Source of the DNA: a virus
Virus record (IMG/VR): IMGVR_UViG_3300027971_000028
Span: 1 to 64,000 of that record
Strand: one strand, 5' to 3'
DNA length: 64,000 bases
Within the stretch, counting starts at the first letter, position 1. Each line of letters starts with the position of its first letter. The notes beneath the pieces were generated by a model. That model had not been told where the DNA came from. It searched no databases and saw only the letters and a list, made by a program, of their open reading frames with translations. A program made the position numbers and the translations under genes. This document shows, piece after piece, positions 19,009 through 38,302 of this stretch.

Positions 19009-19184
19009 CCCAAAAACCTACTTTCCTGCACTATTTGTGGTAACCTGATACCTATGAAGCACCAAACGACTTACGACCTACGGACGCATTAGAAAGGTAG
19101 TTGTAATACCTGTCTCCCCAAAGCGGGTGGCACGGGTTGGCTAGTTAAGCAACCTTGTCTCTGTCCCCTAACAAAGGAAAATCA

Positions 19185-22201: not shown

Positions 22202-22492
22202 ATGGACAACTTCTTTGAGTTATCAGTGGCTGGTCTTGCTACCTATAGAATAGCAAGGCTTATTGTTAAGGACGAAATATTCTCTAAATTAAGAAATGCA
22301 ATTTGGAAAAAGTTTCCCCCAGAGAAGTCCAAATTTGGCTACCTGTTCACCTGTATGTGGTGTACCGCAATTTGGGTCGCATCACTACTTGAAATATCAC
22401 GTATCATTATCCCTAACGTAATACATCCAGTAGAGGTTGTTCTAGCGATCTCTGCTATTGCTGGTTTGTTGGCTGCGTATGAAGAAAAGTGA
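22202..22492 (+). CDS. DUF1360-like membrane protein
   Basis: LATYRIARLIVKD.IF..LR...FTCMWCTAIW. Confidence 0.75.
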   Translation: MDNFFELSVAGLATYRIARLIVKDEIFSKLRNAIWKKFPPEKSKFGYLFTCMWCTAIWVASLLEISRIIIPNVIHPVEVVLAISAIAGLLAAYEEK

Positions 22493-22532
22493 TAGTTCTT
22501 CTACTCCGCCACAGAGACGAGGAGTTTCAAGG

Positions 22533-24260
22533 GTGAGTGTTTTCAAACACCAAGAGCCGATAGAGCCTACCCCTATCGTTGCGTCTGAAATTGTCCCAAA
22601 GAAAGTTAGAAAAAGAAAAAAGTCTACTACTCGTTCAACTCAGATAGTTAGAAACATTAAACCAAAACTTACAGGCGCTGCTGGAATATTTATTTCCTCT
22701 AATGCTCAAGCAGTTTCCTATTCAACACCTAGAACTTTAACTGCTGCTGCAGTACAAATTAAAATTAATGATAAAGGCGAGTTTGAACAATTCAAACAAC
22801 GTCGATCTGCTGGCTCTAGTGCATGGCAATCCGAAGCATGGGAATATTATGATGCTATTGGAGAAATAAAATATGCATTTAACTTAGTTGCTTCCGTTGT
22901 TTCTCGTATTCGTATCTACGCTGCTGCCATCGATAACGCTGCAGAAGCACCAGCACCCGTTGCGTTATCTAGTGTTATTGATCCACGTTTAGCAGCAGCT
23001 GCGGAGCGAGCACTTGCTCGTTTAGATTCTGCGTACGGTGGACAAGCAGGACTTCTTCGTGATGCTGCATTAAATATTTCAGTTGCTGGTGAATGTTATT
23101 TAGTTCAAATGCCAGAACGAGTTGGTTCAGGTATTCCAGAGTCTTGGGATATTAAATCTGTAGATGAAATAATGGCTGACACTCGCGGTGGATTTAATAT
23201 TGTTGGTCGCAGAGAACAAAGTATTGGTGGAGGTATGTCACCGAACAATAAACTTTCTAAGAGTGCATTTGTAGGACGCATCTGGCGTTCACATCCTCGT
23301 TACTCAGATGAAGCAGATTCATCTCTTCGTGGCTTACTAGATCTTTGCGCAGAACTTTTACTTCTTAATAGAACATTCCGTGCTACAGCACGTTCACGCC
23401 TAAATGCTGGTGCACTTTACTTGCCAGATGGTTTGTCAGTTGCAGCAGGTGGCGACCCAGACTATCCATATGACACAGATAGCGAAGCGAACCCAGGGTT
23501 TACTGCAGAAGAAGCAGAGGATGAGTTTGAAGAACAATTAATTGACGCTATGACAACTCCTATTCGCGACGAGGAGTCTGCTAGTGCAGTAGTTCCACTT
23601 ATTATTCGAGGTCCCGCTGAACTTGGCGACAAGATTAAACAATTTAAGTTTGAGCGTTCATTTGATCCAGCACTTGCTTCTCGCGCCGACAGAGTATTAG
23701 AGCGAATCCTGCAAGGACTAGATGTTCCTAAGGATGTTGTTACTGGTCTAGCAAACGTTAAGTATTCAAACGCACTTCAAATCGATGAGTCACTATATAA
23801 AGCACATATCGAACCATTGATGTTATTAATTGCTGATGCTTTAACAGTTGTTTACTTACGTCCATACCTTAAGGCACAAGGATTTACTGAATCAGAGGTA
23901 GATCGAATTGTTGTTTGGTATGACCCTTCAGCAGTTGCTACTAGAAATGATAAAGCAGCCGATGCTGACTCAGGATTTGATCGTGGCGCTATTTCTTACG
24001 ACTCATGGAGACGTGCTCATGGATTCTCATCTATGGATGCACCAACACCAAATGAACTTGCTATCCGAATGCTTTCTGAAAAGGGAGCAATTAGCCCTGA
24101 GTTAACAGAAGCAATGTTAAACACTGTTGCTCCAGAAATGATGAACGCAGTTAGAGATACACAGCAAGAAAATTCTGTTGCTCCTCTGCCACCAGAGGTA
24201 GAACAAGTTTTACAACAAGCAACACAACCCCCAACTGAGCAACAAGGAGTTACACAATGA
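22533..24260 (+). CDS. Portal protein (start revised from 22458)
   Basis: GAGGAG SD before GTG; WQSEAWEYYDAIGEIKY..., AVVP, LDVP...G..N.W/Y pattern of actinophage portals; first large head gene. Confidence 0.85.
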   Translation: MSVFKHQEPIEPTPIVASEIVPKKVRKRKKSTTRSTQIVRNIKPKLTGAAGIFISSNAQAVSYSTPRTLTAAAVQIKINDKGEFEQFKQRRSAGSSAWQSEAWEYYDAIGEIKYAFNLVASVVSRIRIYAAAIDNAAEAPAPVALSSVIDPRLAAAAERALARLDSAYGGQAGLLRDAALNISVAGECYLVQMPERVGSGIPESWDIKSVDEIMADTRGGFNIVGRREQSIGGGMSPNNKLSKSAFVGRIWRSHPRYSDEADSSLRGLLDLCAELLLLNRTFRATARSRLNAGALYLPDGLSVAAGGDPDYPYDTDSEANPGFTAEEAEDEFEEQLIDAMTTPIRDEESASAVVPLIIRGPAELGDKIKQFKFERSFDPALASRADRVLERILQGLDVPKDVVTGLANVKYSNALQIDESLYKAHIEPLMLLIADALTVVYLRPYLKAQGFTESEVDRIVVWYDPSAVATRNDKAADADSGFDRGAISYDSWRRAHGFSSMDAPTPNELAIRMLSEKGAISPELTEAMLNTVAPEMMNAVRDTQQENSVAPLPPEVEQVLQQATQPPTEQQGVTQ

Positions 24261-24721: not shown

Positions 24722-25756
24722 ATGGCAAAGCAGTGGGCGCCCTCTAACTGGGCAAAAGAAGGTAGTAAGGATTATGTTCCTGTAACTACCTCTATTTCTG
24801 CTGCCGCTGGTTCAAAACCTGCCCCTAAAAAAGATCAAATAAAAGGCTCAAATAAAAACTCTAAAGGATCTGCATCAGGTTCTCGCAAAGTTGTTTTTTC
24901 TAAAGCAGTAGAGAACTCTCTTAAAGAGAAAGTCTCTAATCATAACGAGAAAAGTCCTAAAGGAAGAAGAGCAACTTTAGGTATGTTAAAAGCAGTTTAT
25001 CGTCGTGGCGCTGGAGCATTTTCTGTTTCTCATCGTCCTGGTATGAACCGTAATCAGTGGGCAATGGGAAGAGTAAATGCTTTTCTAAAACTACTTAAGT
25101 CTGGCAGACCAACAAATGCTGCTTATAAGTCAGACAATGATTTGCTACCATCTTCTCATCCTCGTAGCACTAAAAAATCAAACTCTATTACTGCAGCAGG
25201 TTTAGTTCCTGAAGAACAAGATTTAGCAAATGCATTGATTGAGATCTCGCAGAAGTATGGAAAATTTAATGAAGACGAAGAAGGTATTTGGGCAGGCTAC
25301 ACGCCGCCAGCGGAAAATGAAGTTGCTTCTATTGGTGTTACTTGCGCCAATTGCGTTCTATATGCTGGGGGTTCGAATTGTAAAATCATTGCTCTCCCAG
25401 TTGAGCCAACAGGAAAATGTAGATTTGCCGTAATACCTGACGGAGTTGTTAATGTAGAAGGCAGTAAAAATCTAACTGAAGTAAAAGATGAATTAGATGA
25501 GTACGTAATAGATCAAGAGTTAAATGTTCTACTAAAGAACAAAGAAGATTATGAAACTGTAGAAGATGCAATTTTTGCTATGACTGAGTATCTAGGTTAT
25601 GGATATGAAGCAGAGCCTGCAATTAGAGCAAGTTGGTTAAGAGCAGTTAAAAATGGAGAAGATCCATTCTTAAGAGCATCACTTCTTGCTTCACTAGGAA
25701 AAGGTAGTTTAGATGCAGATTTGCTTCCAGTACTAGAAGAGGAGGATCAAGCATGA
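24722..25756 (+). CDS. Two-domain head-associated protein (VYRRG...HRP...QWA..RVN domain plus Cys-rich domain)
   Basis: First domain recalls DUF5824-type proteins; second has CANC...C...C (HiPIP-like spacing). Confidence 0.6.
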   Translation: MAKQWAPSNWAKEGSKDYVPVTTSISAAAGSKPAPKKDQIKGSNKNSKGSASGSRKVVFSKAVENSLKEKVSNHNEKSPKGRRATLGMLKAVYRRGAGAFSVSHRPGMNRNQWAMGRVNAFLKLLKSGRPTNAAYKSDNDLLPSSHPRSTKKSNSITAAGLVPEEQDLANALIEISQKYGKFNEDEEGIWAGYTPPAENEVASIGVTCANCVLYAGGSNCKIIALPVEPTGKCRFAVIPDGVVNVEGSKNLTEVKDELDEYVIDQELNVLLKNKEDYETVEDAIFAMTEYLGYGYEAEPAIRASWLRAVKNGEDPFLRASLLASLGKGSLDADLLPVLEEEDQA

Positions 25757-28700
25757 GTAGAATAAGAAGAATTAGTTATGCCATCACTCCTGAAGGTCGT
25801 CGTGCTGTTGCTATTAAGCAAGCAGTAGATTTAAGAGATAAAGTTTTGTCAGTTGTAGATAATGCTAATTTTTCAACATCTACTGCAAGAAAGATTACTA
25901 AAAAAGCTGCTTTTTCTGTAGTTATGCGCTCTCTAGAAGAGAGCAAAGGATTGCCACTATCTCTTCGCGAGCACTTAGCAATGAAAGAACTTAATAAGTA
26001 CATATCACTTGCTAAACATAATAAAAGTGATTTCTTCTACGCAACTAATACAGATTTATTACCAATCTCTCACCCACGCTCAACTCGCGAGCATTCAATG
26101 ACTGCTAGTGCATTAAGAATTGCACGCTCTCGTTGGTTTGCTGCTGATCCAAGGATTACAGATGAAAGAGCAAAAGCAGTTCTTGCTTCAGCATTTGAAT
26201 CAATACCAGGATCTGTAGAGCATCTTTACTACACTTCAATATTACTTTCACTTCCTCAAGGAATGATTCCAGGCGAGGCTTTAATTGCAGCATCTGATGG
26301 AAACTCTTTTGAGTCACGTAGTGCTCGTGCTAGACGTCAACGTCGTGATCGTAAAGGAAGATTTGCTTATGAAGGTGGAGGTATTCGTGCTCTTATTCGT
26401 CGTCTTGACGGAAATGTATTTAGTCTTAGTGGAAGAGTAGTTGCCAACGCTAAAAATAGTAAAGATGTAGAAGTAGAGTTTCCAGATGGAAAAATCGCTG
26501 AAATAAATCCTGCTAAAGGTGAATATATAAAAGCAGTTCTACCTACTCCAAATGGCTACTCTCCTGAACCTATAATTCCAAGTGTAACTGATGAAGTTAT
26601 AAATGAAAAAGATTTAGTATTTCTTGATGCCCCTAACGGCTGGGAAAAAGATGAAAAATATAAAGAGTTTGGCGATAAAGTAGAGAGATATGTAGATTCT
26701 GATAAAGAGTTTGTAGTTTTTGTCTCTAAACAAGATGATGGAACAAAAGATTATCAAATACTAAATGCTAAGTCTGCTGAACAAATTGCTGTAGTTAAGA
26801 ACTGGGCAGATGTTCAAGATAAATTAGAAGGAAATGAAGATAAACTATTAAATCCAAAAGCAAATCTTCCATTTAGACAAGGCTTAATTCCTGCTGAAGA
26901 TAGACCAGGGCCAAATGCATATGAGCGCCTTATGGCTGAGAAAAAAGATAAAGAAAATGCCATTGCAAATCGTAAAGCAGAGTTAAAGAAGAATGCTGAT
27001 GACAGAGTAGATGCTTTAGATCGCACCGTCCCCGAGGGTTGGGATATTGAAGAGAAAAACAATGCTCTTATGTTACGCAGAGCCACAGAGCCAGCAGACT
27101 TAGAGAACGTTTATAAGCAAGATAACTTTGTAGCAAGAGTTATAGAGCAAGGTGATATCTCAGTTAAAGATGCAAACAATCTTTTAAAAGACAAGGTTTA
27201 TCAGAACTGGGCTTATGTAGATAAAGAAAAAGATGCTAGAGCCACGGAGTATGCTCAAAAGGCTCGTGAAGAGATTAAAAACTTTGCTCCTGCTTATGGA
27301 TACAAAGAAGAAGATTTAAAAAAGATTGATTCAATGTCCGCTGATGAAATTGCTAGTTTCTTTTTAGATGAAAAACTTCAACCAGAAGGATTTGCTAGTG
27401 CATTAGATGACTATATGAATTCAGCTATGGTAGATGCTCCATCTAAGCAACAAGAAGAAAAGTGGAATAGTTTTGGTAAAAAATTAAAGATTATAAATGA
27501 CGCTGGAGATTTTCCTGGTAATAATAAAAAGAAGGCTGAGTTACCTAAGCAACCAGATGCTCCAGTTGAAACTAAAGGTGGCTTTGAATTTAACTACCCA
27601 GCGGGGGCGTATAAAATTAAGCAAGGTTCTGCATATGATCCTCAAGGGCGCGTAGATGAAGATAGTCCAGACTTTACAGATGACCCTATTGAACTTGCTC
27701 AAAAGCAAGATGAAAGAGACATACTTGCTGCATTAGAGCAAGCAGTTTCTCCAGGAGAAAACGGGGAGAATGCTTTAGGAGTAGGAGCTCTTCCTTTTGC
27801 TAAAGGCGATGAGTTTGTTCCTGCTGAAGCACTTTTCTTTGCTTTAGAAGAAGCAGGAATTGATGCTCCTATGGAGTTAGCAAAGATTTATGATAAAAAA
27901 CTTGGTGCTGATAATAACGAAAAAGCATTAAATGATTTTAGAAAGAAAGCAGAGATTGTTTCTGGTAATACTCCAGAACTTGCCGAGTCATTTAAAAAAG
28001 TTACAGAACAAAATCCTGATTTAGAGCCTCCTACTCAAGAGCCAAAGTTTGATGCTAAAGAAATGGATTTGGTTCCACTTCCTCCGCTTCTAGAAGGTCT
28101 TAGCCAAAAAGAGTTAGATCAATTTAATGAGACAAAAGATCACATTCCATACTTACCTAAGAATGAAGAAATTCAAATGCCAGAAGGTTATAACCCTCTT
28201 AGCCCAGAGCCATTTGCAGCATGGAAAGAAGTAACTGCAGAAAATCCTGATGCAATTCTTCCTGAAGGCTTCTCAGACAATCCTGTTTTCTTAGCACAAG
28301 AGATTTCTACAAATGATTTGTTAAAAGAATTACGTCGATCTGTAGAACCAGGCAATGAGGTTCCAGGCGCTGCTGTAATAGCACTTCCTACAGATGATGG
28401 AGAAGACTTTGTTGCAAACGTACCAGGAGAAGCAGTTAGAGATGCTCTTCAACTTAAAGGAATTGACACTAACGCTGAATTAAAGAAGATTGCTGAAGAA
28501 GGATTAATCGGTCAAGTAGATGAGGCACCTGTAGCAGAACTTCCTGCTGATGATGCCATACGTCTTGTTGTTGATGGAGATGTTCCACTAGAGACTCAGA
28601 TTAGAGATGCAATTGCTGCTAAAAAGAAAATTGCATTCTTATACAATGGAACTGAGCGTTTAGTTCTTCCTGTAGAAGTTTTTGAAAATCCTAGAAACTC

Positions 28701-31700
28701 AAATGTAAATGTAAGAGCAATTGATGCAAAGGGAGACAAAAGAACATTTACTCTTAGCAAGATTGAGAACAGTAAAGAAGGTTCACCAGCGGGTACCCCC
28801 GAAATTACCGATAAAGAAATTTTTGATCGCCGCATGGCTGGAGAGTCATTACAAGATATTGCAGATGCTACAGGCATCCCTCGTGAAGAGATTCGTGCAA
28901 GAGAGGCTAAGTATGCTCGTGAGAACCCAGAAGCAAAGCCAGAGGCAGTTGTTGGAGACTACAAACCTACTGCTGATCAAATAGATAAACTTCAAAAGGG
29001 TGTTGCAGAGATGGATTGGCTAGATAACGGAATTATGTTCCTAAAGCCTGATGATGGTGGTCCTCGCGCAGAAGCACCTATTGAGATTTATGACGATAAT
29101 GGTTTACCAGAAGATGGCCCATTTGCAAAGATTGATTCAAATGGAAACTTTGAATGGAAAGATCAAGGAGCATACGATAAATATGCTGATCGCTTAAAAG
29201 AAATTCTAGATGCTGACTTAGCAGGTATCGGCAATAATCAAGATAACCAACAACCAAAAGAAATTGATAACGTGCCCGTCGAGCAGGCAAAACTTGATGA
29301 TAATCAAGAGCCAAAAGATAAAAAATATGTAGAAGAGAACCCTGAAGTAATCAAGGTGAATGCTTTTGTTGAAGCAAATGCTGGACGTCTTGCTCCTACT
29401 AAAGCAAGAGATGTAAAAACTGGTGATTTCTTATGGAATAACTTTAATAAAGTATATGAAGAGATTCTTGATATTCAACCAGCACCTTTTGGTCGAGTTA
29501 GGTTTTTAATTAAAGATCCAAGAAATCAAAAAGAGTATTTCCGTTTCTTTGATCGTCGCTCTCCTATTCGTAATATGCGTCGTCTTGGTACTGGAGAGGT
29601 GCCTGAAGATTTTAGAGTTCCGCCAGAAGAGAATAAGGGCGATGGACCAAAGCGTGGTCGCGCTTTAAGACAACCACTAGAAAAAAGAGTTGAAGTAGTT
29701 GCTGGGCGTGATGTAGGAGGATTTGCATACAGAGAAGGCTTCTATAAAGATAAAAATGGAATTGTTTTAAAACCTGGCGATAGAGTTCGTCATGGAAATG
29801 CAAAAAAGAATGAGATGTATGGCGAGGGTGTAGTTCTTGTTCGCGCTGGAGATCAGATTGATGAAGCCAAAAAGGTTGGTGGAATTGGTCGTAACGGAAA
29901 AGTTTATAAAGACTACGTATGGGTACAACTACCAGGTGAAGATGGTCCACGTTTGTGGAAATCAAGAATGATTGTCAGACAAGGAGATAACGCAGGTCCT
30001 GCTCGCGTTGCACCTGAGGCTAGAGATGTTGCACCTGATGCTCCTAAGATAGAGATCCCTAAAGCAGAGCCAATAGCAGAAAAAGTTCCTGACGCTGCTG
30101 ATATGAATGAAGAACTTATTCAAAAAGAACTTAAGAAGATTAGAGTTAAGTATCTCCCTAAAGCCAGAGATTATAAAGCAAATGATGAAGTCCGTGGTGC
30201 TGGTAAAAAACTAGACGAGGTAGTTAATAAATTAAATGCTGGAGAAAAAATAGAAGATCTTTCTACATCTCCTCTAGATTCAGCAATTCGTAAATTACGT
30301 AGAGTTAGGGATCTAGAGAATAACCCTAATGCGTTAGTTCTTGCTGACTATATAGAAAACTTCAAGAAAGAAATAGAAAAATATAAAGATGAGAAAGATA
30401 AAGAAAGACGTGCTGAGTTTGAAAGAATATTAAATGAGCCAATACCAGATGATTTAATCCCAGCAAACGTAGATGCTCTTGATGAAGAAAAAATTAAAGA
30501 GGCTGTAAAAGTAATTTCTATAAAACTTCCTAAGTGGAATGAGAGAGGCGCTAATCGCAAAGCAAGTGAGGCTGCCTACTACTTAGAGAGATTTGCTAAA
30601 GAAATGGATCAAGGTCAAGTAATTGAAGGAATTGACCCTGCTGATCTACTTCAGGTATCTACATACTTAAAAGACTCAGGGGATGCTAGATACGAGTCTT
30701 TGGGAGATAAGATAGATCAACTTAACGAACTTATCAAACAAAGACAAATTGCCAATGAGAAGCCTTTTGCTAAAGCAAATATGGAGTTTATTGATCCTGT
30801 TGCTGAAGCAGAAAAAAGAGTTAATAATAAAGATAATGAGTTTAATGCTTCTGAAAAACTACGATCTGCTTTTGCTTCAGATGAGATCTATCAACAAAAC
30901 TCTTATTTAAATCCTCATAAAGATCAATTAAAAGAATTTTTTGCTCTTGAAGGCGGGGCCTCTTTAGCAAAACTAGACCAAAAGGCTCGTCAGGCTTTGG
31001 CTCAATATGTAAGTCAAGAGATTAGAAATCCTGATGGCATGCAAGGTGCTGATGACGCTGAGACAGCAAAGAACATAAATGAAATTGCTACTTTAGTAAA
31101 AGCACTTCACGATGAAAAGATGGTTTACAGCCCAAATAGATCTAACATTGGACCAGCAGATGCTTTACTAAATATAGATCCTACAAAGATTTTAAATTTT
31201 GGAAAAACTCTTGATTCAGGAGTTCGTAAGAAGTTAGTTATAGATGGAAACGACACTGGGTTTGATATTCAAAGAGTTTCTCAAGGTATAAATAGCGGTA
31301 GCAACTTTAGACTTATACATAGACAAAGTGGTCAGGTTGTTTACTTTAAGAGAGAAAAAACAGAAGGAGCAGCTGATGCAGAGTATGTTTCTTCAAAGAT
31401 AGCCCAATCTCTAGGTATTGCAGGTGCAGCATATGTTCAAAAGCATCCAAACGATTCTAGAACAGTTCTTATTACAAATGCTGGAGATGGAATAGATTTT
31501 AAGAATAAGCCAGTACTATTTGATAACTTCCCTGGTAAATCTTCAACCGAGACTATTGCTAAGAGAGCTGCTCTTGCTGATGTGATTGGTTTAGCAGTTC
31601 TTGATGCTGTTATTTATAATACTGATAGACACGTACAAAACTTCTTAGCAGGAGTCGTTGACAATAAAGGCGTAGATAAAAATGGTTATGAAGAAATTCA

Positions 31701-32019
31701 ACTTTTACCAATTGATCACGGATACGCTCAACTTCTAAATGGTGGTGGTAGTAGAAGTGTTACAGATCCATTTACCCACATGAAGGGCAGAGATGCTCGT
31801 ACAGGTGGAGAGATCAATAAAGCAGTGGCTAAGCAAATTGGAGCAACTGCATATAAAGAATTAATAGACATGACCTCTCAACAAGCGATACAAGCACTGA
31901 AAAGAATGTATGGTTCTGACATTAGTAAAGCAACTTTAGATGAGGTAATTACTCGTCTGGAGGATCTACGGGGAATAAGTAAAGAAAAATGGCGTACTGG
32001 TTTAGCGGGAAGGAACTAG
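25753..32019 (+). CDS. 2088-aa multidomain protein: WYL domain, HTH, SH3/KOW-like modules, C-terminal HipA/PI3K-like kinase
   Basis: WYL-like IRDAIAAKKKIAFLY..ERLVLP...RTFTLSKI (28588-28770); HTH (28801-28914); kinase YFK, AEYVSSKIA, NTDRHVQN, IDHG. Confidence 0.85.
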   Translation: MSRIRRISYAITPEGRRAVAIKQAVDLRDKVLSVVDNANFSTSTARKITKKAAFSVVMRSLEESKGLPLSLREHLAMKELNKYISLAKHNKSDFFYATNTDLLPISHPRSTREHSMTASALRIARSRWFAADPRITDERAKAVLASAFESIPGSVEHLYYTSILLSLPQGMIPGEALIAASDGNSFESRSARARRQRRDRKGRFAYEGGGIRALIRRLDGNVFSLSGRVVANAKNSKDVEVEFPDGKIAEINPAKGEYIKAVLPTPNGYSPEPIIPSVTDEVINEKDLVFLDAPNGWEKDEKYKEFGDKVERYVDSDKEFVVFVSKQDDGTKDYQILNAKSAEQIAVVKNWADVQDKLEGNEDKLLNPKANLPFRQGLIPAEDRPGPNAYERLMAEKKDKENAIANRKAELKKNADDRVDALDRTVPEGWDIEEKNNALMLRRATEPADLENVYKQDNFVARVIEQGDISVKDANNLLKDKVYQNWAYVDKEKDARATEYAQKAREEIKNFAPAYGYKEEDLKKIDSMSADEIASFFLDEKLQPEGFASALDDYMNSAMVDAPSKQQEEKWNSFGKKLKIINDAGDFPGNNKKKAELPKQPDAPVETKGGFEFNYPAGAYKIKQGSAYDPQGRVDEDSPDFTDDPIELAQKQDERDILAALEQAVSPGENGENALGVGALPFAKGDEFVPAEALFFALEEAGIDAPMELAKIYDKKLGADNNEKALNDFRKKAEIVSGNTPELAESFKKVTEQNPDLEPPTQEPKFDAKEMDLVPLPPLLEGLSQKELDQFNETKDHIPYLPKNEEIQMPEGYNPLSPEPFAAWKEVTAENPDAILPEGFSDNPVFLAQEISTNDLLKELRRSVEPGNEVPGAAVIALPTDDGEDFVANVPGEAVRDALQLKGIDTNAELKKIAEEGLIGQVDEAPVAELPADDAIRLVVDGDVPLETQIRDAIAAKKKIAFLYNGTERLVLPVEVFENPRNSNVNVRAIDAKGDKRTFTLSKIENSKEGSPAGTPEITDKEIFDRRMAGESLQDIADATGIPREEIRAREAKYARENPEAKPEAVVGDYKPTADQIDKLQKGVAEMDWLDNGIMFLKPDDGGPRAEAPIEIYDDNGLPEDGPFAKIDSNGNFEWKDQGAYDKYADRLKEILDADLAGIGNNQDNQQPKEIDNVPVEQAKLDDNQEPKDKKYVEENPEVIKVNAFVEANAGRLAPTKARDVKTGDFLWNNFNKVYEEILDIQPAPFGRVRFLIKDPRNQKEYFRFFDRRSPIRNMRRLGTGEVPEDFRVPPEENKGDGPKRGRALRQPLEKRVEVVAGRDVGGFAYREGFYKDKNGIVLKPGDRVRHGNAKKNEMYGEGVVLVRAGDQIDEAKKVGGIGRNGKVYKDYVWVQLPGEDGPRLWKSRMIVRQGDNAGPARVAPEARDVAPDAPKIEIPKAEPIAEKVPDAADMNEELIQKELKKIRVKYLPKARDYKANDEVRGAGKKLDEVVNKLNAGEKIEDLSTSPLDSAIRKLRRVRDLENNPNALVLADYIENFKKEIEKYKDEKDKERRAEFERILNEPIPDDLIPANVDALDEEKIKEAVKVISIKLPKWNERGANRKASEAAYYLERFAKEMDQGQVIEGIDPADLLQVSTYLKDSGDARYESLGDKIDQLNELIKQRQIANEKPFAKANMEFIDPVAEAEKRVNNKDNEFNASEKLRSAFASDEIYQQNSYLNPHKDQLKEFFALEGGASLAKLDQKARQALAQYVSQEIRNPDGMQGADDAETAKNINEIATLVKALHDEKMVYSPNRSNIGPADALLNIDPTKILNFGKTLDSGVRKKLVIDGNDTGFDIQRVSQGINSGSNFRLIHRQSGQVVYFKREKTEGAADAEYVSSKIAQSLGIAGAAYVQKHPNDSRTVLITNAGDGIDFKNKPVLFDNFPGKSSTETIAKRAALADVIGLAVLDAVIYNTDRHVQNFLAGVVDNKGVDKNGYEEIQLLPIDHGYAQLLNGGGSRSVTDPFTHMKGRDARTGGEINKAVAKQIGATAYKELIDMTSQQAIQALKRMYGSDISKATLDEVITRLEDLRGISKEKWRTGLAGRN

Positions 32020-33109: not shown

Positions 33110-36100
33110 TTGCAATTTATAGGTCGTAGTGGGAATAACGCCTTATTTGTGCTTGAAAACAAGGCTGTAGTTGTAGACGAAAAAAGAAACTTAGTTTCTT
33201 CTATTGACTATGCAGATGCGCTCACTGCTTCTTTCACTCCTGATGATAACCAAGAGAATCCATCTTCTGTTACTTACGAGTTAGCAACCGCTGCAATATC
33301 AGATTTAGACATAAAGATTTTTTCAAATAATGACCGTTTATACACAATTCCAAAATCAGTTCAGTCAGAGGCAAAACGTGCCTTAGAGTGGCGTAAAAAG
33401 CATGATCGCGGTGGCACATCGGTAGGTTTAAATACTGCTAGAACTCTTGCTCGTGGTGGTCAAATTGGTATTAGAAAAATTCGTCACATCGCTAAGTACT
33501 TCCCTCGTCATCAAGTAGATAAAAAAGGAAAAGGCTACGAGCCTTCAGAACCTGGCTATCCTTCAAATGGACGCATCGCTTGGGCTCTTTGGGGTGGAGA
33601 TGCTGCTGAACGCTGGGCCAGTGCAATAGTTGCCCGTGAAAATAAGAAGGCTCAGGCAAACTCAATTACTGCTTCATATAAATTTGTTATGGCCGACTAT
33701 GAGTCTCCAGAAAAGGTAGAACTTAACTCTTTTATAGAGTCAGAGATGTTGCCAGAAGATATGGCTCCTCAGTTCTTTATTCGTATTCGTTTAGATGGTA
33801 CTGGCATTGATCGCTTATATAAAGTAAATACAGACGGATCAGTCTTTGTTTGGGACGATGCAATGTGGGAAGATCTTGGAAATATTAACTATGATTTTCA
33901 CACTTACGATAAAAGCCTCGATGATCCCTATGACATGGTTGAGAAAATACATGTTCCTGTAGACACAGAAACTGCAATTATTGTTTCAGGAAACTTAGAC
34001 TCTAATCCTATGAAATCAATTTCTATATCTCAAATTAATCAAGAAGAGTCTGACATATTTGTAGATGAGATGGATAAAATTGATTGGGATTTAATTAATG
34101 AGATTTCTTATGATGAAAATATGTATAGCGAGTATGAGGAGTTTTCAGACTCTTCTTTAACTGCTGCCACTGCTCCGACAGCAGGAACTCCTGTAACTAA
34201 TCAAGATGGAAATTACACTCCAGAAGAGCGCTCTCAGAAAGCACGTTCTCAGGTAAGAGATGCTATAGGTAAGTTTGCCAAGTCTGGTGGACGAGTTGTT
34301 ATTGGTAAAAAGCCAGAGTATTCAGGAACTATTGAATCTATTAACCCTGCTACTCAAAGCGTTAAGGTTAAGTTAGATAATGGAAATTATGTTGATGTTC
34401 CTGCTAATACTACAGAGCCTGCAGATACTTTTAAACCACTTCCACAAGAAAAAACTTTAACATCTACTAAGCAACTTACTAAAGGAATTTTAGGAGAGCC
34501 TAGAGTTCCTATTGATTCCCCTAATGCCACTCTTCCTGGAAAACTTCCTCAATTAAACACTGCTCAAGTTCAAACAATATTAAATGACCTTCCAGCATGG
34601 AGCACTGATCAAAGATTAAAAGCATCTTCTCCTAGCGCTCCTACGGCTGTTAGCACAGAAACAAAAACTCCTAATGCTTATAACGATCCAAGTTTAAGAA
34701 AGTTTTTAGAGAAAAAAGTTGTAGTAAATGGAGAAACCACTTATCCTAATTCAATTTGGTATCAACCAAAAGTAGATCCTTCTTCAATAGAAGGCTACAA
34801 ACCAACTAAAGACTTAACTCCTTCCCCTGGATTAAAAGTTCCACCTGCTTTTCGACAACCTGCTAAAGGTCTTACCTCTGCTGCATCTGTAGCATTAACG
34901 CCAGATACTTCAGATGTTCCACCAATTTATATGGCAATTGTTTCACCTGATGATCCTCAAGCGGTAATGGAATTAGTTTCATTAATACCTACTAGTAAAG
35001 ACTCTGTTGTAACTTCTACATGGAAGCGTAAGCCAGGAGTATGGGAAAAAGATGACTCAATTCTTTCTGATTTAAAGAGTCCTACACCTCCACCAGTTGT
35101 TGTCTTAGATGATGACACCTTAAAAATAGTTTTGGATCAAATAGATTCAGCTGCTAAAACTGCATCTGCATATATTACAGATTCAATAATTTCTTCCTTA
35201 ATTGCTGCTGGAGGAATTGACCGTAACAAAGGAAATGCTGAAAAACTTCGTCGTTATTGGTTATATGGAAAAGGTGCAGCAAAAATTCGTTGGAATACCG
35301 CAGGTGATTGGACCCGCTGCGTTCGCCAACTTTCAAAATACATGGGTCCTCGAGCAAAAGGCTACTGTGCATTGCGTCATAAAGAAGCAACTGGCATGTG
35401 GACTGGAGATAAGGAGCATCGTCAACTTTATGGCAAAAAAGGAATTAGAGCAGACGCGTTTAGCACAGATTTTATACTTCCTTCTGAAGCCATACTCGAA
35501 GCAACCTCTCTTAAAGCAAGAGCAGCGGATGCCAGAAACAGAGTTGTCTTAGCAGGAGCAGAGATAGAAGATTTTAAAGGAGCAGAGTTTGTTATTCCTT
35601 TAGTTATCCCAGAAGACATAGAGTCTGGAGATGGTCGTAAGTTTGAAAAAGGCGCTATTACTATGCGTGAACTTCCTCTTCCATTTTTATGGCAAATTAA
35701 GACTGGCGAGGGTCATTCTGGATCAGTTGTAATTGGAACAATTATTCAGATGGAAAGAGTAGAACAAGGTATTGGAAATGCCAGAGGATATTTTGATACT
35801 GGAGAATACGGAAAAGAAGCGGAAAGATTAGTTCGTGGAGGCTTCATCCGTGGAGTTTCTGCTGATATGGACATGTTTGAAGCAGATGAAGAAAAAGAAA
35901 ATGCTGAAAATGACTCTAACAAAAAAGTTGGAGCAGGTAAAATGAACATAACTAAGGCAAGGGTTATGGCTGTAACTCTTGTCCCCAAGCCCGCTTTTCA
36001 GGAATGTCGAGTAGAACTCGCAGACCAAAGCGGAGAAATGCAGGAGGAAGAAGTGATATCTGATGGAGTGTATGTCGAAGGATTAAATCCTTTAGACGCA

Positions 36101-38302
36101 TCAGCGTTAGTAGCGTGTGGAATTGTGGCTGGGTCAATACCAGTTACTCCACCGAAAGATTGGTTTGCTAACCCAAAATTAAAAAAACCAACCGCACTAA
36201 CAGTAACTGATGAAGGTCAAGTGTATGGTCACATTGCTGCATGGCATGTAGATCATATTGGAATGTCTTATGGAACTCGTCCTCCTCGGAGTAAGAGCAG
36301 TTATGCATACTTCCACACTGGTGCTGTACGTGCTGACGATGGAACAGATGTTCCAGTTGGACAATTAACTTTAGCTGGAGGACATGCTTCTCTTGAAGCA
36401 AGTGCTTCAGAAGCAGTTCGTCATTATGACGACACAGCATCTGCAGTAGCAGATGTACATGCTGGAGAAGATGCTTATGGTATCTGGGTATCAGGAGCAC
36501 TTCGCCCTGGCACAACTCCAGAACAAATTCGTGCTCTACGTGCCTCTGCTCCGTCAGGAGATTGGAGACCGATTAAAGGTGCTTTAGAGCTTGTAGCAAT
36601 TTGTCAGGTAAATGTTCCTGGCTTCCCAATTGCTCGTGCTCGTGTTGCATCAGGTCAAGTTATGGCACTTGTTGCTGCTGGTGCAAGCGTTCTTGCTCAA
36701 CTAAAGAACGATCCTTTAGCAGAGTTACATACTCGAATTGATAAACTAGAAGCACCATTAATTGCGGCTAGTAATAGTGCTAAAGATAGAATGAGAACAA
36801 TTACTGCTGCTATTAAAGCATCTGAATTATCTAATAGAGTAAATAAGATGAAAGAAGAATCTTCTTCTTATATGCTTCAAAGTATTGATAACTCAGATTC
36901 AGAGTTAGCAGTCATTACTCGCAAACAACGTATGGAATTAGCAAAAGATAAAAAAGCACTTCCAGATGGGTCATTCCCAATTAGAAATGTTTCTGATCTA
37001 AAAAATGCTGTTCATGCATATGGACGTGCTAAGCCAGGAAATCGTGGTTTGGTTCGCCGTCATATTGTAAAGATGGCTCGTCAGTTAGATCGAAAAGATC
37101 TAATTCCAGAGAACTGGAAAGAAGCATCCGTAAACGATACAGATAGTATTGCTGCTAGTTTAAGAGCAAGAATCTCTATTGTTGAATCAGTTGTTGCCGC
37201 TGGCGGTTTGGATCGTAACCGGGGAAACGCTGAAACGCTTCGTCGCTACTGGACAAGAGGCGAAGGAGCTGCAAAAATCCGTTGGGGAGCACCTGGTGAC
37301 TGGAGTAGATGCGTAAAGCATTTAGCAAAGTATCTAGGTCCTCGTGCTAAGGGTTACTGTCAACTACGTCATAAAGATGCTTTAGGTATTTACACTGCAA
37401 CACATGCTAAGCGTGATAGAGCTAAGAATAATTCTGTAGAAGAATTTTCTAGTGATTACATGCCAGAGACAATGGAGCAGATGGAGATTCCACAGGATCA
37501 ACTACAAATGCCTGTAAGCAAAATTATTCAACAACCAGATGATCTATATGACGCTCAATGGGAGCCAGAAGATATGATTGTTGTCATTTTAAATGAAATG
37601 GGAGAGGCTTCAGAAGCAGATTTTTTAGCCAATTCTGAAACATTTGCTGAAAAAGATCCTTATGTAGTAGATCAAAGTGAGCCTGTTGGTACACCTGATT
37701 TAACAAAAGAAGATCTAAAAGGTCTTACAGATGAAGAAACAGATATACTAAAAAAAGAAGTTAAGAGTAAGCAAGACGCAGAAAAGTCTAGAGCTAAATA
37801 CACACCTAAAACCCAACCCCGTGATGCCACAGGGAAGTTTCGACAAGTGCTTGCTCGGTTGAAACTGGACCTAGGTGATGCTGGATCAGATGCTGCATTA
37901 AAGAAGATTGAAGAGGTTGATAATCTAGATAATGCTGGTAACTACGCTGAAGCAGCCAAGGCTGCTGGCGATTTGCTAGATATTGTAGATAGATTAGATA
38001 CAGGAGCACTTAACGCTGAGGCTATAGGCAATGTTAGAAACAGTGCTGGAGAATTAGGCAAGGTTATTGCTAACCTACCTTTTGCCTTTGGAGAAGATGC
38101 TCAGAAGATCAGATTTAGTGATGTACCACCTGCCCTACAGGATCTAATGGAAAAAATGATCACTAGGGTTGAGAATAAAATTGGTCAAAAAGACGCAGAT
38201 ATTGCTACTAAAGGTATGAAGGACTTTATGTCAGGTCAAGAGGTCTACAGCCAGAGCGAGATATCTAGTCAAATGTCTAAGTTACTTAGACTACTTACCT
38301 AA
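33110..38302 (+). CDS. 1730-aa multidomain capsid maturation protease
   Basis: HK97-type protease core IESGDGRKF...LPLPFLWQ...GHSGSVVIG...RGVSAD...TLVPKPAF; second WF.NP.L..PT...GHIA.W domain; position between portal and capsid genes. Confidence 0.8.
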   Translation: MQFIGRSGNNALFVLENKAVVVDEKRNLVSSIDYADALTASFTPDDNQENPSSVTYELATAAISDLDIKIFSNNDRLYTIPKSVQSEAKRALEWRKKHDRGGTSVGLNTARTLARGGQIGIRKIRHIAKYFPRHQVDKKGKGYEPSEPGYPSNGRIAWALWGGDAAERWASAIVARENKKAQANSITASYKFVMADYESPEKVELNSFIESEMLPEDMAPQFFIRIRLDGTGIDRLYKVNTDGSVFVWDDAMWEDLGNINYDFHTYDKSLDDPYDMVEKIHVPVDTETAIIVSGNLDSNPMKSISISQINQEESDIFVDEMDKIDWDLINEISYDENMYSEYEEFSDSSLTAATAPTAGTPVTNQDGNYTPEERSQKARSQVRDAIGKFAKSGGRVVIGKKPEYSGTIESINPATQSVKVKLDNGNYVDVPANTTEPADTFKPLPQEKTLTSTKQLTKGILGEPRVPIDSPNATLPGKLPQLNTAQVQTILNDLPAWSTDQRLKASSPSAPTAVSTETKTPNAYNDPSLRKFLEKKVVVNGETTYPNSIWYQPKVDPSSIEGYKPTKDLTPSPGLKVPPAFRQPAKGLTSAASVALTPDTSDVPPIYMAIVSPDDPQAVMELVSLIPTSKDSVVTSTWKRKPGVWEKDDSILSDLKSPTPPPVVVLDDDTLKIVLDQIDSAAKTASAYITDSIISSLIAAGGIDRNKGNAEKLRRYWLYGKGAAKIRWNTAGDWTRCVRQLSKYMGPRAKGYCALRHKEATGMWTGDKEHRQLYGKKGIRADAFSTDFILPSEAILEATSLKARAADARNRVVLAGAEIEDFKGAEFVIPLVIPEDIESGDGRKFEKGAITMRELPLPFLWQIKTGEGHSGSVVIGTIIQMERVEQGIGNARGYFDTGEYGKEAERLVRGGFIRGVSADMDMFEADEEKENAENDSNKKVGAGKMNITKARVMAVTLVPKPAFQECRVELADQSGEMQEEEVISDGVYVEGLNPLDASALVACGIVAGSIPVTPPKDWFANPKLKKPTALTVTDEGQVYGHIAAWHVDHIGMSYGTRPPRSKSSYAYFHTGAVRADDGTDVPVGQLTLAGGHASLEASASEAVRHYDDTASAVADVHAGEDAYGIWVSGALRPGTTPEQIRALRASAPSGDWRPIKGALELVAICQVNVPGFPIARARVASGQVMALVAAGASVLAQLKNDPLAELHTRIDKLEAPLIAASNSAKDRMRTITAAIKASELSNRVNKMKEESSSYMLQSIDNSDSELAVITRKQRMELAKDKKALPDGSFPIRNVSDLKNAVHAYGRAKPGNRGLVRRHIVKMARQLDRKDLIPENWKEASVNDTDSIAASLRARISIVESVVAAGGLDRNRGNAETLRRYWTRGEGAAKIRWGAPGDWSRCVKHLAKYLGPRAKGYCQLRHKDALGIYTATHAKRDRAKNNSVEEFSSDYMPETMEQMEIPQDQLQMPVSKIIQQPDDLYDAQWEPEDMIVVILNEMGEASEADFLANSETFAEKDPYVVDQSEPVGTPDLTKEDLKGLTDEETDILKKEVKSKQDAEKSRAKYTPKTQPRDATGKFRQVLARLKLDLGDAGSDAALKKIEEVDNLDNAGNYAEAAKAAGDLLDIVDRLDTGALNAEAIGNVRNSAGELGKVIANLPFAFGEDAQKIRFSDVPPALQDLMEKMITRVENKIGQKDADIATKGMKDFMSGQEVYSQSEISSQMSKLLRLLT

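What the first reader, a model, noticed from the sequence alone, without database searches (positions are those of the whole stretch)
25753..32019. 2088-aa polyvalent protein with WYL, HTH, SH3-like modules and a HipA/PI3K-like kinase inside the head operon
The kinase catalytic motifs are intact: beta3 Lys YFK (31348), alphaC Glu, DRHxxN (31624-31641) and IDHG (31711-31722). A WYL domain, a nucleic-acid-sensing module of defence regulators (established), and an HTH lie mid-protein among long acidic spacers. The gene occupies the slot where MuF-toxin or internal proteins are often found, between portal and protease. Probable role: a virion-delivered multi-effector for host takeover or counter-defence. 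I do not recognise this WYL + kinase combination in a head protein.
Basis: partly seen in the sequence, partly recalled or inferred. Interest (0 to 1): 0.85.

Follow-up and report, generated by a model that had tools for sequence, protein, structure and literature searches.

The report
Giant phage head-cargo protein with kinase
An uncultured 133-kb phage of actinobacteria encodes, between its portal and capsid genes, a real 2088-residue modular protein with DNA-binding-type domains and an intact atypical kinase at its tip. It is most likely packed in the virus head and shot into the host with the DNA; the idea is known, but this family has not been studied at the bench.

Summary
These are a WYL-type barrel (res 940-1007), an HTH (1016-1066), two KOW/SH3-like barrels (1214-1279, 1325-1412) and a C-terminal atypical kinase (1810-2088). 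The kinase model (pLDDT 83) matches CotH, HipA, CtkA and PI4K-II at Z 12-15. Its catalytic residues (K1866, E1877, D1958, N1963, D1988) are kept in 118-122 of 122 family domains.

The protein belongs to a metagenome-only family of 1,200-4,200-aa proteins. In nine relatives' loci the gene sits in the same slot: portal, ferritin (in some), DUF5824, giant, small genes, a 1400-1900-aa gene (in one locus more than 4,500 aa), then, where the locus reaches that far, a ~705-aa capsid-sized gene. Family members keep a constant N-terminal module. In 53 of 70 they also keep the helical-plus-kinase C-terminus. The middle is shuffled, and the end can be swapped for ArdC-N/MPTase, exonuclease, helicase or primase modules.

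That makes it a new variant of the "polyvalent proteins" of Iyer et al. 2017. Packaging into virions, ejection and kinase targets are inferred, not shown. The host is an actinobacterium (three WhiB genes; portal relatives are all actinophages). This scan has already found the same kind of protein on other DNA.

The parts
25753..32019 (+). Whole gene, 2088-aa modular (polyvalent) protein P0001
   Evidence: ORF listing and translation; 70 homologues of 1,200-3,600 aa
25753..26877 (+). Constant N-terminal module (res 1-375), inferred capsid-loading part; the first 120 residues are basic (pI 10.3)
   Evidence: Present in nearly all relatives; 51-88% identity in four loci, with many invariant columns; charge; no Pfam, PHROG, PDB or Atlas match
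25795..26115 (+). Segment (res 15-121) resembling the core of the upstream DUF5824 protein, ending in LLPxSHPRST...[IM]TA[AS]
   Evidence: BLASTP E=1e-9, 32% identity; the same likeness recurs in loci L023-L026
26854..27552 (+). Module B (res 368-600), a mobile module found at other positions in relatives
   Evidence: HSP map; tblastn on loci
27529..28557 (+). Module C (res 593-935), very acidic (net -43) and the most conserved module of the family; function unknown
   Evidence: no PDB sequence match
28570..28773 (+). WYL-type small beta-barrel (res 940-1007)
   Evidence: Model pLDDT about 85. VIA matches: PafBC Z 8.2 at 27% id, DriD Z 8.1 at 26% id and rmsd 1.8, BrxR Z 8.0, CapW Z 7.6-7.7. 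Foldseek top hits are DriD, BrxR and CapW. Pfam WYL E=0.0027, 18.1 bits, below the cut-off of 21.8. Six-frame hit at 28594-28770. PADLOC WYL E=1.7e-4
28798..28950 (+). Three-helix HTH (res 1016-1066)
   Evidence: Pfam Sigma70_r4 E=5.8e-4 on the isolated segment, below cut-off; VIA DeoR/SorC DNA-binding domains Z 6.3
28957..29220 (+). Alpha/beta domain (res 1069-1156), unassigned
   Evidence: Model pLDDT 58-80; no row in the fold lists covers it, so it is barely tested
29392..29589 (+). SH3/KOW-like barrel 1 (res 1214-1279)
   Evidence: VIA EF-P domain I Z 8.3, rmsd 1.8, 62 aligned
29725..29988 (+). SH3/KOW-like barrel 2 (res 1325-1412)
   Evidence: VIA Spt5 KOWx-KOW4 Z 9.1, rmsd 2.5, 62 aligned
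30100..31179 (+).
   Evidence: Joint block q1477-2085 in relatives; alignment A5; no PDB sequence match
31180..32016 (+). C-terminal atypical protein-kinase-like domain (res 1810-2088) with K1866, E1877, D1958-R-H, N1963 and D1988
   Evidence: Model pLDDT 82.9, pTM 0.83. VIA: CotH Z 15.4 over 250 aa, HipA 12.0, CtkA 11.9, PI4K-IIalpha 11.8. Foldseek: Vps34, CtkA, PI4K-II, CotH and HipA at E about 1e-4. Profile vs PDB: PI4K-IIbeta E=0.018. Pfam PI3_PI4_kinase 19.4 bits, below cut-off. Residue conservation
24722..25756 (+). Upstream partner gene, 344-aa DUF5824 protein, always immediately upstream of the giant
   Evidence: Pfam DUF5824 E=3.3e-7; synteny
22458..24260 (+). Portal protein
   Evidence: phrog_776 E=1e-107; 876 actinophage portal matches
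33110..38302 (+). 1730-aa protein with a region like prohead proteases
   Evidence: phrog_18402 'head maturation protease' E=1e-57 at res 1012-1250
38471..40609 (+). Major head protein
   Evidence: phrog_777 E=1e-77
16692..17222 (+). Dual-specificity phosphatase in the upstream (presumed early) region; a possible antagonist of the kinase (inferred)
   Evidence: Pfam DSPc E=4e-11, above cut-off

Best explanation
The gene encodes a 'polyvalent' cargo protein of an uncultured, siphovirus-like actinobacteriophage of about 133 kb.

Shown here: it is one real 2088-aa polypeptide built from modules. In order these are a family-constant N-terminal module, acidic spacer modules, a central block of nucleic-acid-binding-type folds (WYL, HTH, two KOW/SH3 barrels), a further ~360-residue region, and a C-terminal atypical kinase. 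The kinase's complete catalytic set is under strong purifying selection. The gene keeps a fixed place in the head-assembly block in every relative examined. Relatives shuffle the middle and swap the end for antirestriction (ArdC-N + MPTase), exonuclease, helicase or primase modules.

Inferred: the constant N-terminal module loads the protein into the procapsid. Its first ~120 basic residues resemble the neighbouring DUF5824 protein and end in a shared HPRST...TA[AS] motif. The protein would leave the head with the DNA. The basic WYL/HTH/KOW block would hold it on the incoming DNA or on nucleic-acid-bound host complexes. The kinase would then phosphorylate host proteins (defence, DNA-binding or transcription factors) before any phage gene is expressed. 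Phage T7 does this with a kinase steered by a DNA-binding domain. An early phage dual-specificity phosphatase may later limit or reverse this phosphorylation.
For: Gene and family.

Synteny: the order portal, ferritin (in some), DUF5824, giant, one or two small genes, a 1400-1900-aa gene, ~705-aa capsid-sized gene holds in L023, L036, L038 and L039. L024-L026 and the P0041 contig keep the same order as far as they reach. In L037 a 436-aa ferritin-bearing gene precedes the giant and a gene of more than 4,500 aa follows. DSL-LC01 has portal, giant and two protease genes in that order.

Polyvalent hallmark domains in family members: ArdC-N and MPTase-PolyVal in P0017 and P0061; RNase_T, UvrD and DnaG/Toprim in P0061 and P0070.

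Kinase: the model has pLDDT 83 and pTM 0.83. Fold matches are to CotH, HipA, CtkA, PI4K-II, Vps34, MavQ and Fam20C at Z 10-15, with Foldseek probability 1.00. Across 122 family kinase domains down to about 22-30% identity, K1866, E1877 and R1959 are kept in 122 of 122, D1958 in 118, and N1963 and D1988 in 119 each. The domain ends within 22 residues of the C-terminus in 110 of 110 near-full matches.

WYL, HTH and KOW folds. These modules are basic, with pI 9.2-10.

Shared N-terminal segment with the DUF5824 neighbour.

Precedents: polyvalent proteins next to portal and terminase genes are predicted to be packaged and injected (PMC5512222). The T7 kinase disarms defences and is steered to nucleic-acid-binding substrates by a DNA-binding domain (bioRxiv 10.1101/2024.12.20.629319). 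Phage TM4 depends on Ser/Thr phosphorylation to silence immunity in a mycobacterium (cited in PMC12363180).

Other phages: the same kinase fold occurs in MuF-, portal- and ART-annotated proteins of other phages.

Phosphatase.
Against: There is no direct evidence of packaging, ejection, cleavage or kinase activity.

No MuF or other known head-anchoring domain was detected. The N-terminal module has no recognisable relative outside the family.

Sequence-level family hits for the kinase, WYL and HTH domains are all below curated cut-offs.

The kinase is the conserved end of the protein, not the variable one. That fits a core function of the protein at least as well as a swappable 'effector'.

The closest fold, CotH, phosphorylates structural (spore-coat) proteins. 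That would fit a role in assembly rather than in the host.

The substrate class (protein, lipid or small molecule) cannot be read from the fold.
Confidence: 0.5

Rival explanations
1. Assembly enzyme, not an injected effector. The protein is built into the procapsid or works beside it, and its kinase phosphorylates phage structural proteins (capsid, scaffold/protease protein, portal) to control head maturation. CotH does this for spore-coat proteins.
For: CotH is the best structural match and stands above the rest: Z 15.4 over 250 of 279 residues, against 12.0 for the next. The kinase is the constant end of the family rather than a swappable module. The gene lies among head-morphogenesis genes.
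Against: 17 of 70 family members lack the kinase and carry ArdC-N/MPTase, helicase or primase modules instead, so the kinase cannot be essential for building this kind of head. WYL, HTH, KOW, exonuclease, helicase and primase modules make sense on DNA in a host cell, not in capsid assembly. No sequence-level CotH family hit was found.
Confidence: 0.12
2. The kinase acts on a non-protein substrate. One candidate is a membrane lipid: actinobacteria make phosphatidylinositol (my own knowledge). Another is a small molecule or nucleotide signal of a defence system.
For: The only sequence-level family signal is to phosphatidylinositol 3-/4-kinases. Type II PI4K is the best PDB sequence match, over the NtDRxxxN...IDxG motifs. 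Lipid kinases PI4K-II, PI4K-III, Vps34 and MavQ score Z 10-12. The host is an actinobacterium.
Against: Protein kinases of the same superfamily (CotH, HipA, CtkA, Fam20C, actin-fragmin kinase) score as well or better. The fold does not reveal the substrate. The fused modules are nucleic-acid-binding types, not membrane-binding ones.
Confidence: 0.13
3. A late cytoplasmic protein that is not packaged, for example a DNA-bound regulator or replication/recombination scaffold (WYL-HTH sensor plus kinase) or a superinfection-exclusion factor. On this reading it lies in the head block only because of transcription timing.
For: WYL plus HTH is the architecture of transcription regulators such as PafBC, DriD, BrxR and CapW. 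No known virion-anchoring domain was found.
Against: Its position between portal/DUF5824 and the protease/capsid genes is strictly conserved in nine relatives' loci, across relatives that differ widely in sequence and module content. The family includes members with the hallmark domains of packaged or transferred polyvalent proteins. The N-terminal segment is shared with another head-block protein.
Confidence: 0.1
4. The C-terminal domain is a pseudokinase or a purely structural or ATP-binding cap, and the protein's role is only to bind or protect the DNA end.
For: A few family members have lost the catalytic loop, for example P0128.
Against: K, E, D, N and D are kept in 118-122 of 122 domains at low overall identity. 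That pattern is typical of active enzymes.
Confidence: 0.05

Closest known systems
Polyvalent proteins of phages and conjugative elements (Iyer, Burroughs, Anand, de Souza, Aravind 2017, PMC5512222)
   Same: Many unrelated domains sit in one giant polypeptide. The gene lies with the portal and head genes of a tailed phage. Family members carry the class's hub domains ArdC-N and MPTase-PolyVal, plus helicase, primase and exonuclease. The predicted logic is the same: packaged, delivered with the DNA, acting before phage gene expression.
   Different: P0001 itself has none of the hub domains and no MuF. The kinases described in that paper are Ser/Thr/Tyr-type domains lacking the C-lobe, from Verrucomicrobia-Chlamydia and Bacteroidetes (pro)phages. 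Here the kinase is a PI3/4K-HipA-CotH-like domain in actinophages. The paper mentions WYL only for CRISPR systems, and KOW, CotH and phosphatidylinositol are not mentioned. The constant N-terminal module and DUF5824 partner are not described there.
Phage T7 protein kinase gp0.7 (bioRxiv 10.1101/2024.12.20.629319)
   Same: It is a phage kinase joined to a DNA-binding domain that directs it to nucleic-acid-binding host proteins, and it acts as a broad counter-defence. This is the functional model proposed here.
   Different: T7 kinase is a small early-expressed protein and is not encoded in the head module. No sequence relation was found. Nothing is known about the substrates of the present kinase.
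Phage P1 DarB and the Dar antirestriction system (my own knowledge; P1 Ddr proteins are discussed in PMC5512222)
   Same: A protein of more than 2,000 aa with several domains is packed in the head with the help of accessory head proteins, is ejected with the DNA, and protects it in cis.
   Different: DarB is a methyltransferase-helicase with no kinase, WYL or shared modules. No homology was tested or found here; the likeness is functional only.
Atypical kinases CotH, HipA, CtkA, PI4K type II, Fam20C
   Same: The fold matches at Z 10-15. The catalytic Lys, Glu, DxxxxN loop and metal-binding Asp are shared. The NtDRxxxN...IDxG motif is like that of PI4K type II.
   Different: No curated family threshold is reached. 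There is no HipA N-terminal domain. Here the domain is a C-terminal cap of giant phage proteins, preceded by a family-specific ~360-residue region.
WYL-domain regulators PafBC, DriD, BrxR, CapW
   Same: The WYL-type barrel superposes at rmsd 1.8-2.7 A with 14-27% identity and is followed closely by an HTH.
   Different: In those regulators the HTH comes before the WYL, there is a WCX dimerisation domain, and they are small cellular transcription factors. Here the WYL is a mobile module, sometimes duplicated, inside a giant phage protein.
Actinomycetia phage DSL-LC01 (OQ999401, PMC10611076)
   Same: It is the only deposited phage genome with a relative: a 3289-aa 'hypothetical protein' in the same slot. 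Its portal is 77.5% identical.
   Different: Its giant protein shares only the N-terminal modules (res 24-739, 35% identity). That genome has neither the kinase nor the DSPc phosphatase.

Membership tests
Polyvalent proteins (Iyer et al. 2017) | Two to fifteen distinct domains in one polypeptide, encoded by a phage or conjugative element | tested here: met
   At least five fold-assigned domains plus three family-specific modules, in a complete virus record
Polyvalent proteins (Iyer et al. 2017) | Phage-type context: encoded with the portal/terminase head genes | tested here: met
   Portal upstream, protease-like protein and major head protein downstream; conserved in nine relatives' loci
Polyvalent proteins (Iyer et al. 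2017) | Hub domains of the class (MPTase, ArdC-N, MuF, ART, SNF2/methylase) | tested here: not met
   None found in P0001. They are present in homologous family members P0017 and P0061: ArdC-N E=4e-31, MPTase-PolyVal E=4e-30
Polyvalent proteins (Iyer et al. 2017) | Packaged in the virion and delivered with the DNA | not testable with these tools
   Needs virion proteomics of a cultured relative
PI3K/PI4K catalytic domain (Pfam PF00454) | Score over the curated gathering threshold | tested here: not met
   19.4 bits against 27.1, E=0.0011, covering only profile positions 132-171. Among the ten relatives scanned, the best scores were P0147 at 27.6 and P0136 at 26.4 bits
PI3K/PI4K catalytic domain (Pfam PF00454) | Catalytic loop DRHxxN and metal-binding D[FH]G, with the beta3 Lys and alphaC Glu | tested here: met
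   K1866, E1877, D1958-R-H, N1963 and D1988-H-G; conserved in 118-122 of 122 domains
Protein-kinase-like fold (CotH/HipA/PI4K branch) | Two-lobed kinase fold | tested here: met
   CotH Z 15.4 (rmsd 3.9, 250 aligned), HipA Z 12.0, CtkA 11.9, PI4K-IIalpha 11.8; Foldseek probability 1.00
HipA toxin family | HipA_C family match, HipA N-terminal domain and a HipB-type antitoxin partner | tested here: not met
   No HipA_C or HipA_N hit in P0001 at E<=1. Relatives give only weak HipA_C hits, E=0.005-0.06. No antitoxin-like neighbour
WYL domain (Pfam PF13280) | Score over the curated gathering threshold | tested here: not met
   18.1 bits against 21.8, E=0.0027, profile positions 4-67 of 70. The six-frame search places the only hit in the genome at 28594-28770. 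PADLOC WYL models give E=1.7e-4
WYL domain (Pfam PF13280) | WYL-type Sm/SH3-like barrel fold | tested here: met
   PafBC Z 8.2 at 27% id, DriD Z 8.1 at 26% id and rmsd 1.8, BrxR Z 8.0, CapW Z 7.6-7.7. Hfq and Sm proteins score lower, at 4-12% id. Foldseek top ranks are WYL proteins
MuF head-morphogenesis domain | Sequence or profile match to MuF | tested here: inconclusive
   No Pfam hit in P0001 or the DUF5824 protein. hhalign against the MuF-like protein of Microbacterium phage Margaery gives probability 0.1-0.3%. The N-terminal module was not folded
KOW / SH3-like barrels | Small five-stranded barrel fold | tested here: met
   Spt5 KOW4 Z 9.1 and EF-P domain I Z 8.3. No Pfam hit. The folds are small, so the Z values lie near the tool's stated background of 7-8

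The most novel reading that the evidence does not exclude
A time-zero phosphorylation switch. On this reading, a promiscuous atypical kinase arrives inside the capsid, tethered to the entering DNA by WYL, HTH and KOW modules. It phosphorylates and disarms DNA-associated host defence and transcription proteins before any phage gene is read. The phage's own early dual-specificity phosphatase then resets the cell. This would be a virion-borne kinase paired with an early phosphatase, a form of host takeover not described for any phage.
Probability: 0.12. Interest if true: 0.8.

Novelty: new variant of a known kind. Interest (0 to 1): 0.52.

Why it matters
If the protein is packaged and ejected, these abundant freshwater actinophages carry a ready-made enzyme into the cell. 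That enzyme could act before transcription, at the stage when restriction and many other defences decide the outcome. A virion-delivered kinase has not been shown experimentally for any phage that I know of (own knowledge; none turned up).

The family also offers a natural experiment in module exchange: kinase, ArdC/MPTase, exonuclease, helicase or primase on one constant chassis. Its unassigned N-terminal module and DUF5824 partner are candidates for a new capsid-loading signal. Such a signal could be useful for packing foreign proteins into phage heads.

Against that, the general concept was laid out in 2017, and this scan has already met the family several times.

Tried and rejected
PHROGs gave no family for P0001, the DUF5824 protein, or the 258-aa and 94-aa neighbours.

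phmmer of the kinase region against PDB sequences found nothing meaningful; the one hit was AcrF8 at E=0.92, which is chance.

Profile searches of the N-terminal module, module C and the region before the kinase against PDB sequences found nothing.

The ESM Atlas gave no usable hit for the N-terminal module. For the C-terminal 639 aa it gave only unnamed clusters plus PI3_PI4_kinase and HipA_2 leads.

megablast of 20 kb of the window against phage genomes found no match. tblastn of the kinase domain against 50,697 phage records found no match even at E<=1.

A scan of GTDB genome contigs with module C found no relative, so there is no sign of prophage or cellular copies. The same scan with the kinase alignment could not run because no conserved stretch was long enough.

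A search for short stand-alone forms of the N-terminal module returned only pieces on short contigs.

MuF likeness was not detected.

I tested the idea that the giant is cut into its domains at [LIVM][TIV]A[AS] sites. It has only two such sites, both in the first 180 residues, against 0.9 expected, so this motif gives no support for cutting at domain boundaries. N-terminal trimming remains possible. The GLSSG/LRSSG-type tags noted elsewhere in the scan are absent.

Self-BLAST found no internal repeats.

Kinase/phosphatase co-occurrence could not be tested properly. The 10-kb flanks stop short of where the phosphatase gene lies, and those contigs are not held for whole-record searches.

No organism names could be obtained for relatives. 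No tRNA genes were found in the window.

I did not run complex prediction, because no specific binding pair is claimed.


Full report
**1. The observation**

The window is the first 64 kb of an IMG/VR virus record of 133,336 bp that CheckV rates as complete. ORF 25753-32019 on the + strand is a single open frame of 2088 codons.

- YFK is res 1864-1866, with the Lys codon at 31348-31350.
- DRHVQN is at 31624-31641.
- IDHG is at 31711-31722.

The gene is real. A word-indexed search of 5.8 billion proteins returned 70 relatives of 1,200-3,600 aa. The closest eight are collinear at 68-88% identity.

**2. Surroundings and host**

Upstream lie three genes:
- a portal (22458-24260, phrog_776, E=1e-107);
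- a ferritin/Dps-like gene (24257-24712);
- a 344-aa DUF5824 protein (24722-25756).

Downstream lie four genes:
- two small genes;
- a 1730-aa protein with a prohead-protease-like region (33110-38302);
- the major head protein (38471-40609).

Major tail protein, head-tail adaptor and tape-measure genes follow, so this is a siphovirus-like phage.

The record carries three WhiB genes. All 876 phage records that match its portal infect actinobacteria. The one deposited relative is the lake MAG-phage DSL-LC01, predicted to infect Actinomycetia. WhiB is confined to actinobacteria and their phages, so the host is an actinobacterium. With about 40% G+C it is plausibly a low-GC freshwater lineage; that last point is inference.

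**3. The family and its architecture**

Mapping BLAST segments of P0001 on the 70 relatives gives these modules:
- A constant N-terminal module (res 1-375).
- A mobile module B (368-600).
- A very acidic, highly conserved module C (593-935; pI 4.1, net -43).
- A shuffled middle.
- A joint C-terminal block (about 1477-2088).

53 of 70 members carry the C-terminal kinase, 36 a WYL-like module (six of them twice), 15 the HTH, and 50 the pair of barrels. Members without the kinase end in ArdC-N + MPTase-PolyVal (+SprT), or carry RNase_T exonuclease, UvrD helicase and DnaG primase/Toprim.

Nine loci of relatives have the giant in the same place. L023, L036, L038 and L039 show the full order: portal, DUF5824, giant, one or two small genes, a 1400-1900-aa gene, then a ~705-aa capsid-sized gene. 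L024-L026 and the P0041 contig keep that order as far as they reach, with a ferritin gene before DUF5824. In L037 a 436-aa ferritin-bearing gene precedes the giant and a gene of more than 4,500 aa follows. DSL-LC01 has portal, giant and two protease genes in that order.

No relative was found in 185,579 GTDB genomes with module C. The family is therefore known only from viral and metagenomic contigs.

**4. The kinase**

An alignment of eleven diverse C-terminal domains gave an AlphaFold2 model of res 1810-2088 with pLDDT 82.9 and pTM 0.83.

All-against-representatives structural alignment ranks the following:
- CotH kinase first: Z 15.4, rmsd 3.9, 250 of 279 residues aligned.
- HipA: Z 12.0.
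- CtkA: Z 11.9.
- PI4K type II alpha: Z 11.8.
- PI4K-III beta, Vps34, MavQ, Fam20C and actin-fragmin kinase: Z 10-11.4.

Foldseek agrees, at E about 1e-4 with probability 1.00.

At sequence level only the catalytic-loop region is recognisable:
- Pfam PI3_PI4_kinase scores 19.4 bits, below the cut-off of 27.1.
- The same sub-threshold hit recurs in nine of ten relatives scanned.
- A family profile finds PI4K type II beta over NtDRxxxN...IDxG at E=0.018.

In 122 family domains aligned to the profile, K1866, E1877 and R1959 are invariant. D1958 is kept in 118, and N1963 and D1988 in 119 each. Identities go down to about 22-30%. This is the signature of an active phosphotransferase.

An exhaustive HMMER search of 1.84 billion cluster representatives found the region in only 81 proteins. 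Most of them have more than 1,000 residues. In 110 of 110 near-full matches the domain ends within 22 residues of the C-terminus. A few short forms exist, either fragments or a 406-aa stand-alone gene in another context.

PADLOC's candidate defence protein PDC-M03A gives a weak match at E=2.7e-6, so cellular cousins may exist in defence loci.

**5. The middle**

A 12-row alignment of res 935-1450 gave a model with confident small domains joined by low-confidence linkers (mean pLDDT 61).

- **Res 940-1007 (WYL).** It superposes on the WYL domains of PafBC (Z 8.2, 27% identity), DriD (Z 8.1, rmsd 1.8, 26%), BrxR (Z 8.0) and CapW (Z 7.6-7.7). Hfq and Sm barrels score lower, at 4-12% identity. The top Foldseek ranks are also WYL proteins. 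Pfam WYL scores 18.1 bits against a cut-off of 21.8, covering 64 of 70 profile positions. It is the only WYL signal in the whole phage. PADLOC WYL models give E=1.7e-4. I accept a WYL-type domain, with formal Pfam membership not reached.
- **Res 1016-1066 (HTH).** Sigma70_r4 gives E=5.8e-4, and DeoR/SorC DNA-binding domains give Z 6.3.
- **Res 1214-1279 and 1325-1412 (barrels).** These are SH3/KOW-like: EF-P domain I at Z 8.3 and Spt5 KOW4 at Z 9.1. The Z values lie near the tool's stated background for small folds, so the fold class is supported but nothing more.

The WYL, barrel and kinase modules are basic (pI 9.2-10) and the spacers are acidic.

**6. The N-terminus**

Res 15-121 resemble the core of the upstream DUF5824 protein (E=1e-9). 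The same likeness recurs in four diverged loci.

Both segments end in a near-identical motif. The DUF5824 protein has LLPSSHPRSTKKSNSITAAGL and the giant has LLPISHPRSTREHSMTASAL.

Another first-stage note proposed [LIVM][TIV]A[AS] as a protease code. I tested it:
- The motif is enriched in the 1730-aa protein (8 against 1.2 expected), the major head protein (5 against 1.2) and the portal (3 against 0.6).
- In the giant it occurs only at res 116 and 177.

If this is a cleavage code, the giant is trimmed at its N-terminus and is not diced into domains. This fits a shared capsid-targeting pro-segment, but it is inference only. No MuF likeness was detected.

**7. Mechanism**

Shown: a modular, conserved, head-block gene with nucleic-acid-binding-type folds and a kinase under purifying selection, in a family whose other members carry antirestriction and DNA-processing enzymes.

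Inferred, with my odds:
- The protein is loaded into the procapsid through the constant N-module and leaves with the DNA: about 0.55.
- The kinase acts on host proteins as takeover or counter-defence: about 0.35.

The best functional model is the T7 kinase, whose DNA-binding domain steers it to nucleic-acid-binding substrates and disarms defences (10.1101/2024.12.20.629319). Here WYL, HTH and KOW modules would do the steering.

An early dual-specificity phosphatase (16692-17222) is present in this phage, in three close relatives and in the L023 contig. It is absent, together with the kinase, from DSL-LC01. That is two or three independent data points, so it is a hint only.

The rivals are an assembly kinase in the manner of CotH, a lipid or small-molecule kinase, an unpackaged regulator, and a pseudokinase.

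**8. Comparison and novelty**

The protein fits the polyvalent-protein concept of Iyer et al. 2017 (PMC5512222) in architecture and context. It differs in several respects:
- It lacks their hub domains.
- It carries a different kinase clade from the one they describe, which is STY-type without a C-lobe, in Verrucomicrobia and Bacteroidetes.
- It uses WYL and KOW modules that the paper does not list.

The BFVD library shows the same kinase fold in uncultured-phage proteins auto-annotated as PI3K/PI4K, in MuF-, portal- and ART-annotated proteins, and in a 1479-aa protein of Gordonia phage GodonK. Head-associated atypical kinases are therefore a recurring, uncharacterised theme rather than a singularity.

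This scan has already reported giant head-slot proteins with kinase and WYL modules in other uncultured actinophages.

Verdict: a new variant of a known kind. It is of solid but moderate interest, and the open experimental question is whether a phage really delivers a kinase in its capsid.

Noticed in passing
window 16692-17222 (+): A 176-aa dual-specificity phosphatase (Pfam DSPc, E=4e-11) lies in the upstream, presumably early, region. It is present wherever the kinase was seen in whole records (G000, G002-G004, the L023 contig). Both are absent from DSL-LC01. There are too few independent genomes to call this co-occurrence.
   Followed up: partly
window 26860-26874, 27535-27549, 28534-28548 (res 370-374, 595-599, 928-932 of P0001): The short motif [KV]A[EN]LP sits exactly at the three junctions between modules A/B, B/C and C/middle: 3 observed against 0.03 expected, though the pattern was chosen post hoc. 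AELP also marks the corresponding junctions in relatives P0013, P0027, P0028 and P0041. It could be a recombination micro-homology or a linker signal.
   Followed up: partly
window 33110-38302, 38471-40609, 22458-24260: The motif [LIVM][TIV]A[AS] is enriched in the 1730-aa protease-containing protein (8 against 1.2 expected), the major head protein (5 against 1.2) and the portal (3 against 0.6). It closes the segment shared by the DUF5824 protein (ITAA, res 156) and the giant (MTAS, res 116). This is a candidate prohead-protease site code; no cleavage has been shown.
   Followed up: partly
window 2133-2345 (+); also record positions 66740-66943 and 67779-67976, outside the window: Three WhiB-family genes (E=1e-23 to 1e-12) mark the phage as an actinobacteriophage.
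   Followed up: yes
window 24257-24712 (+): A ferritin/Dps-like gene lies between the portal and the DUF5824 gene. It is conserved there in several relatives (L024, L026, the P0041 contig). In L037 the 436-aa gene immediately upstream of the giant carries a Ferritin hit and no separate DUF5824 gene is called.
   Followed up: no
L037:19798-29372: In one relative, the gene in the place of the 1730-aa protein is longer than 4,557 aa and carries a PIF1-type helicase. The second giant of the head block is therefore also modular and polyvalent.
   Followed up: no
window 30100-32016 (+): The kinase region gives weak matches (E=2.7e-6) to PDC-M03A, a protein of a candidate anti-phage defence system in PADLOC. 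Related kinases may therefore serve on the bacterial side as well.
   Followed up: no
window 2970-3890, 7088-8140, 15039-15611, 19155-19787: The upstream region encodes a subtilase (S8), an AAA_5 ATPase, a weak proteasome-subunit-like protein (at the Pfam threshold) and an SLT_3 lysozyme-like protein.
   Followed up: no
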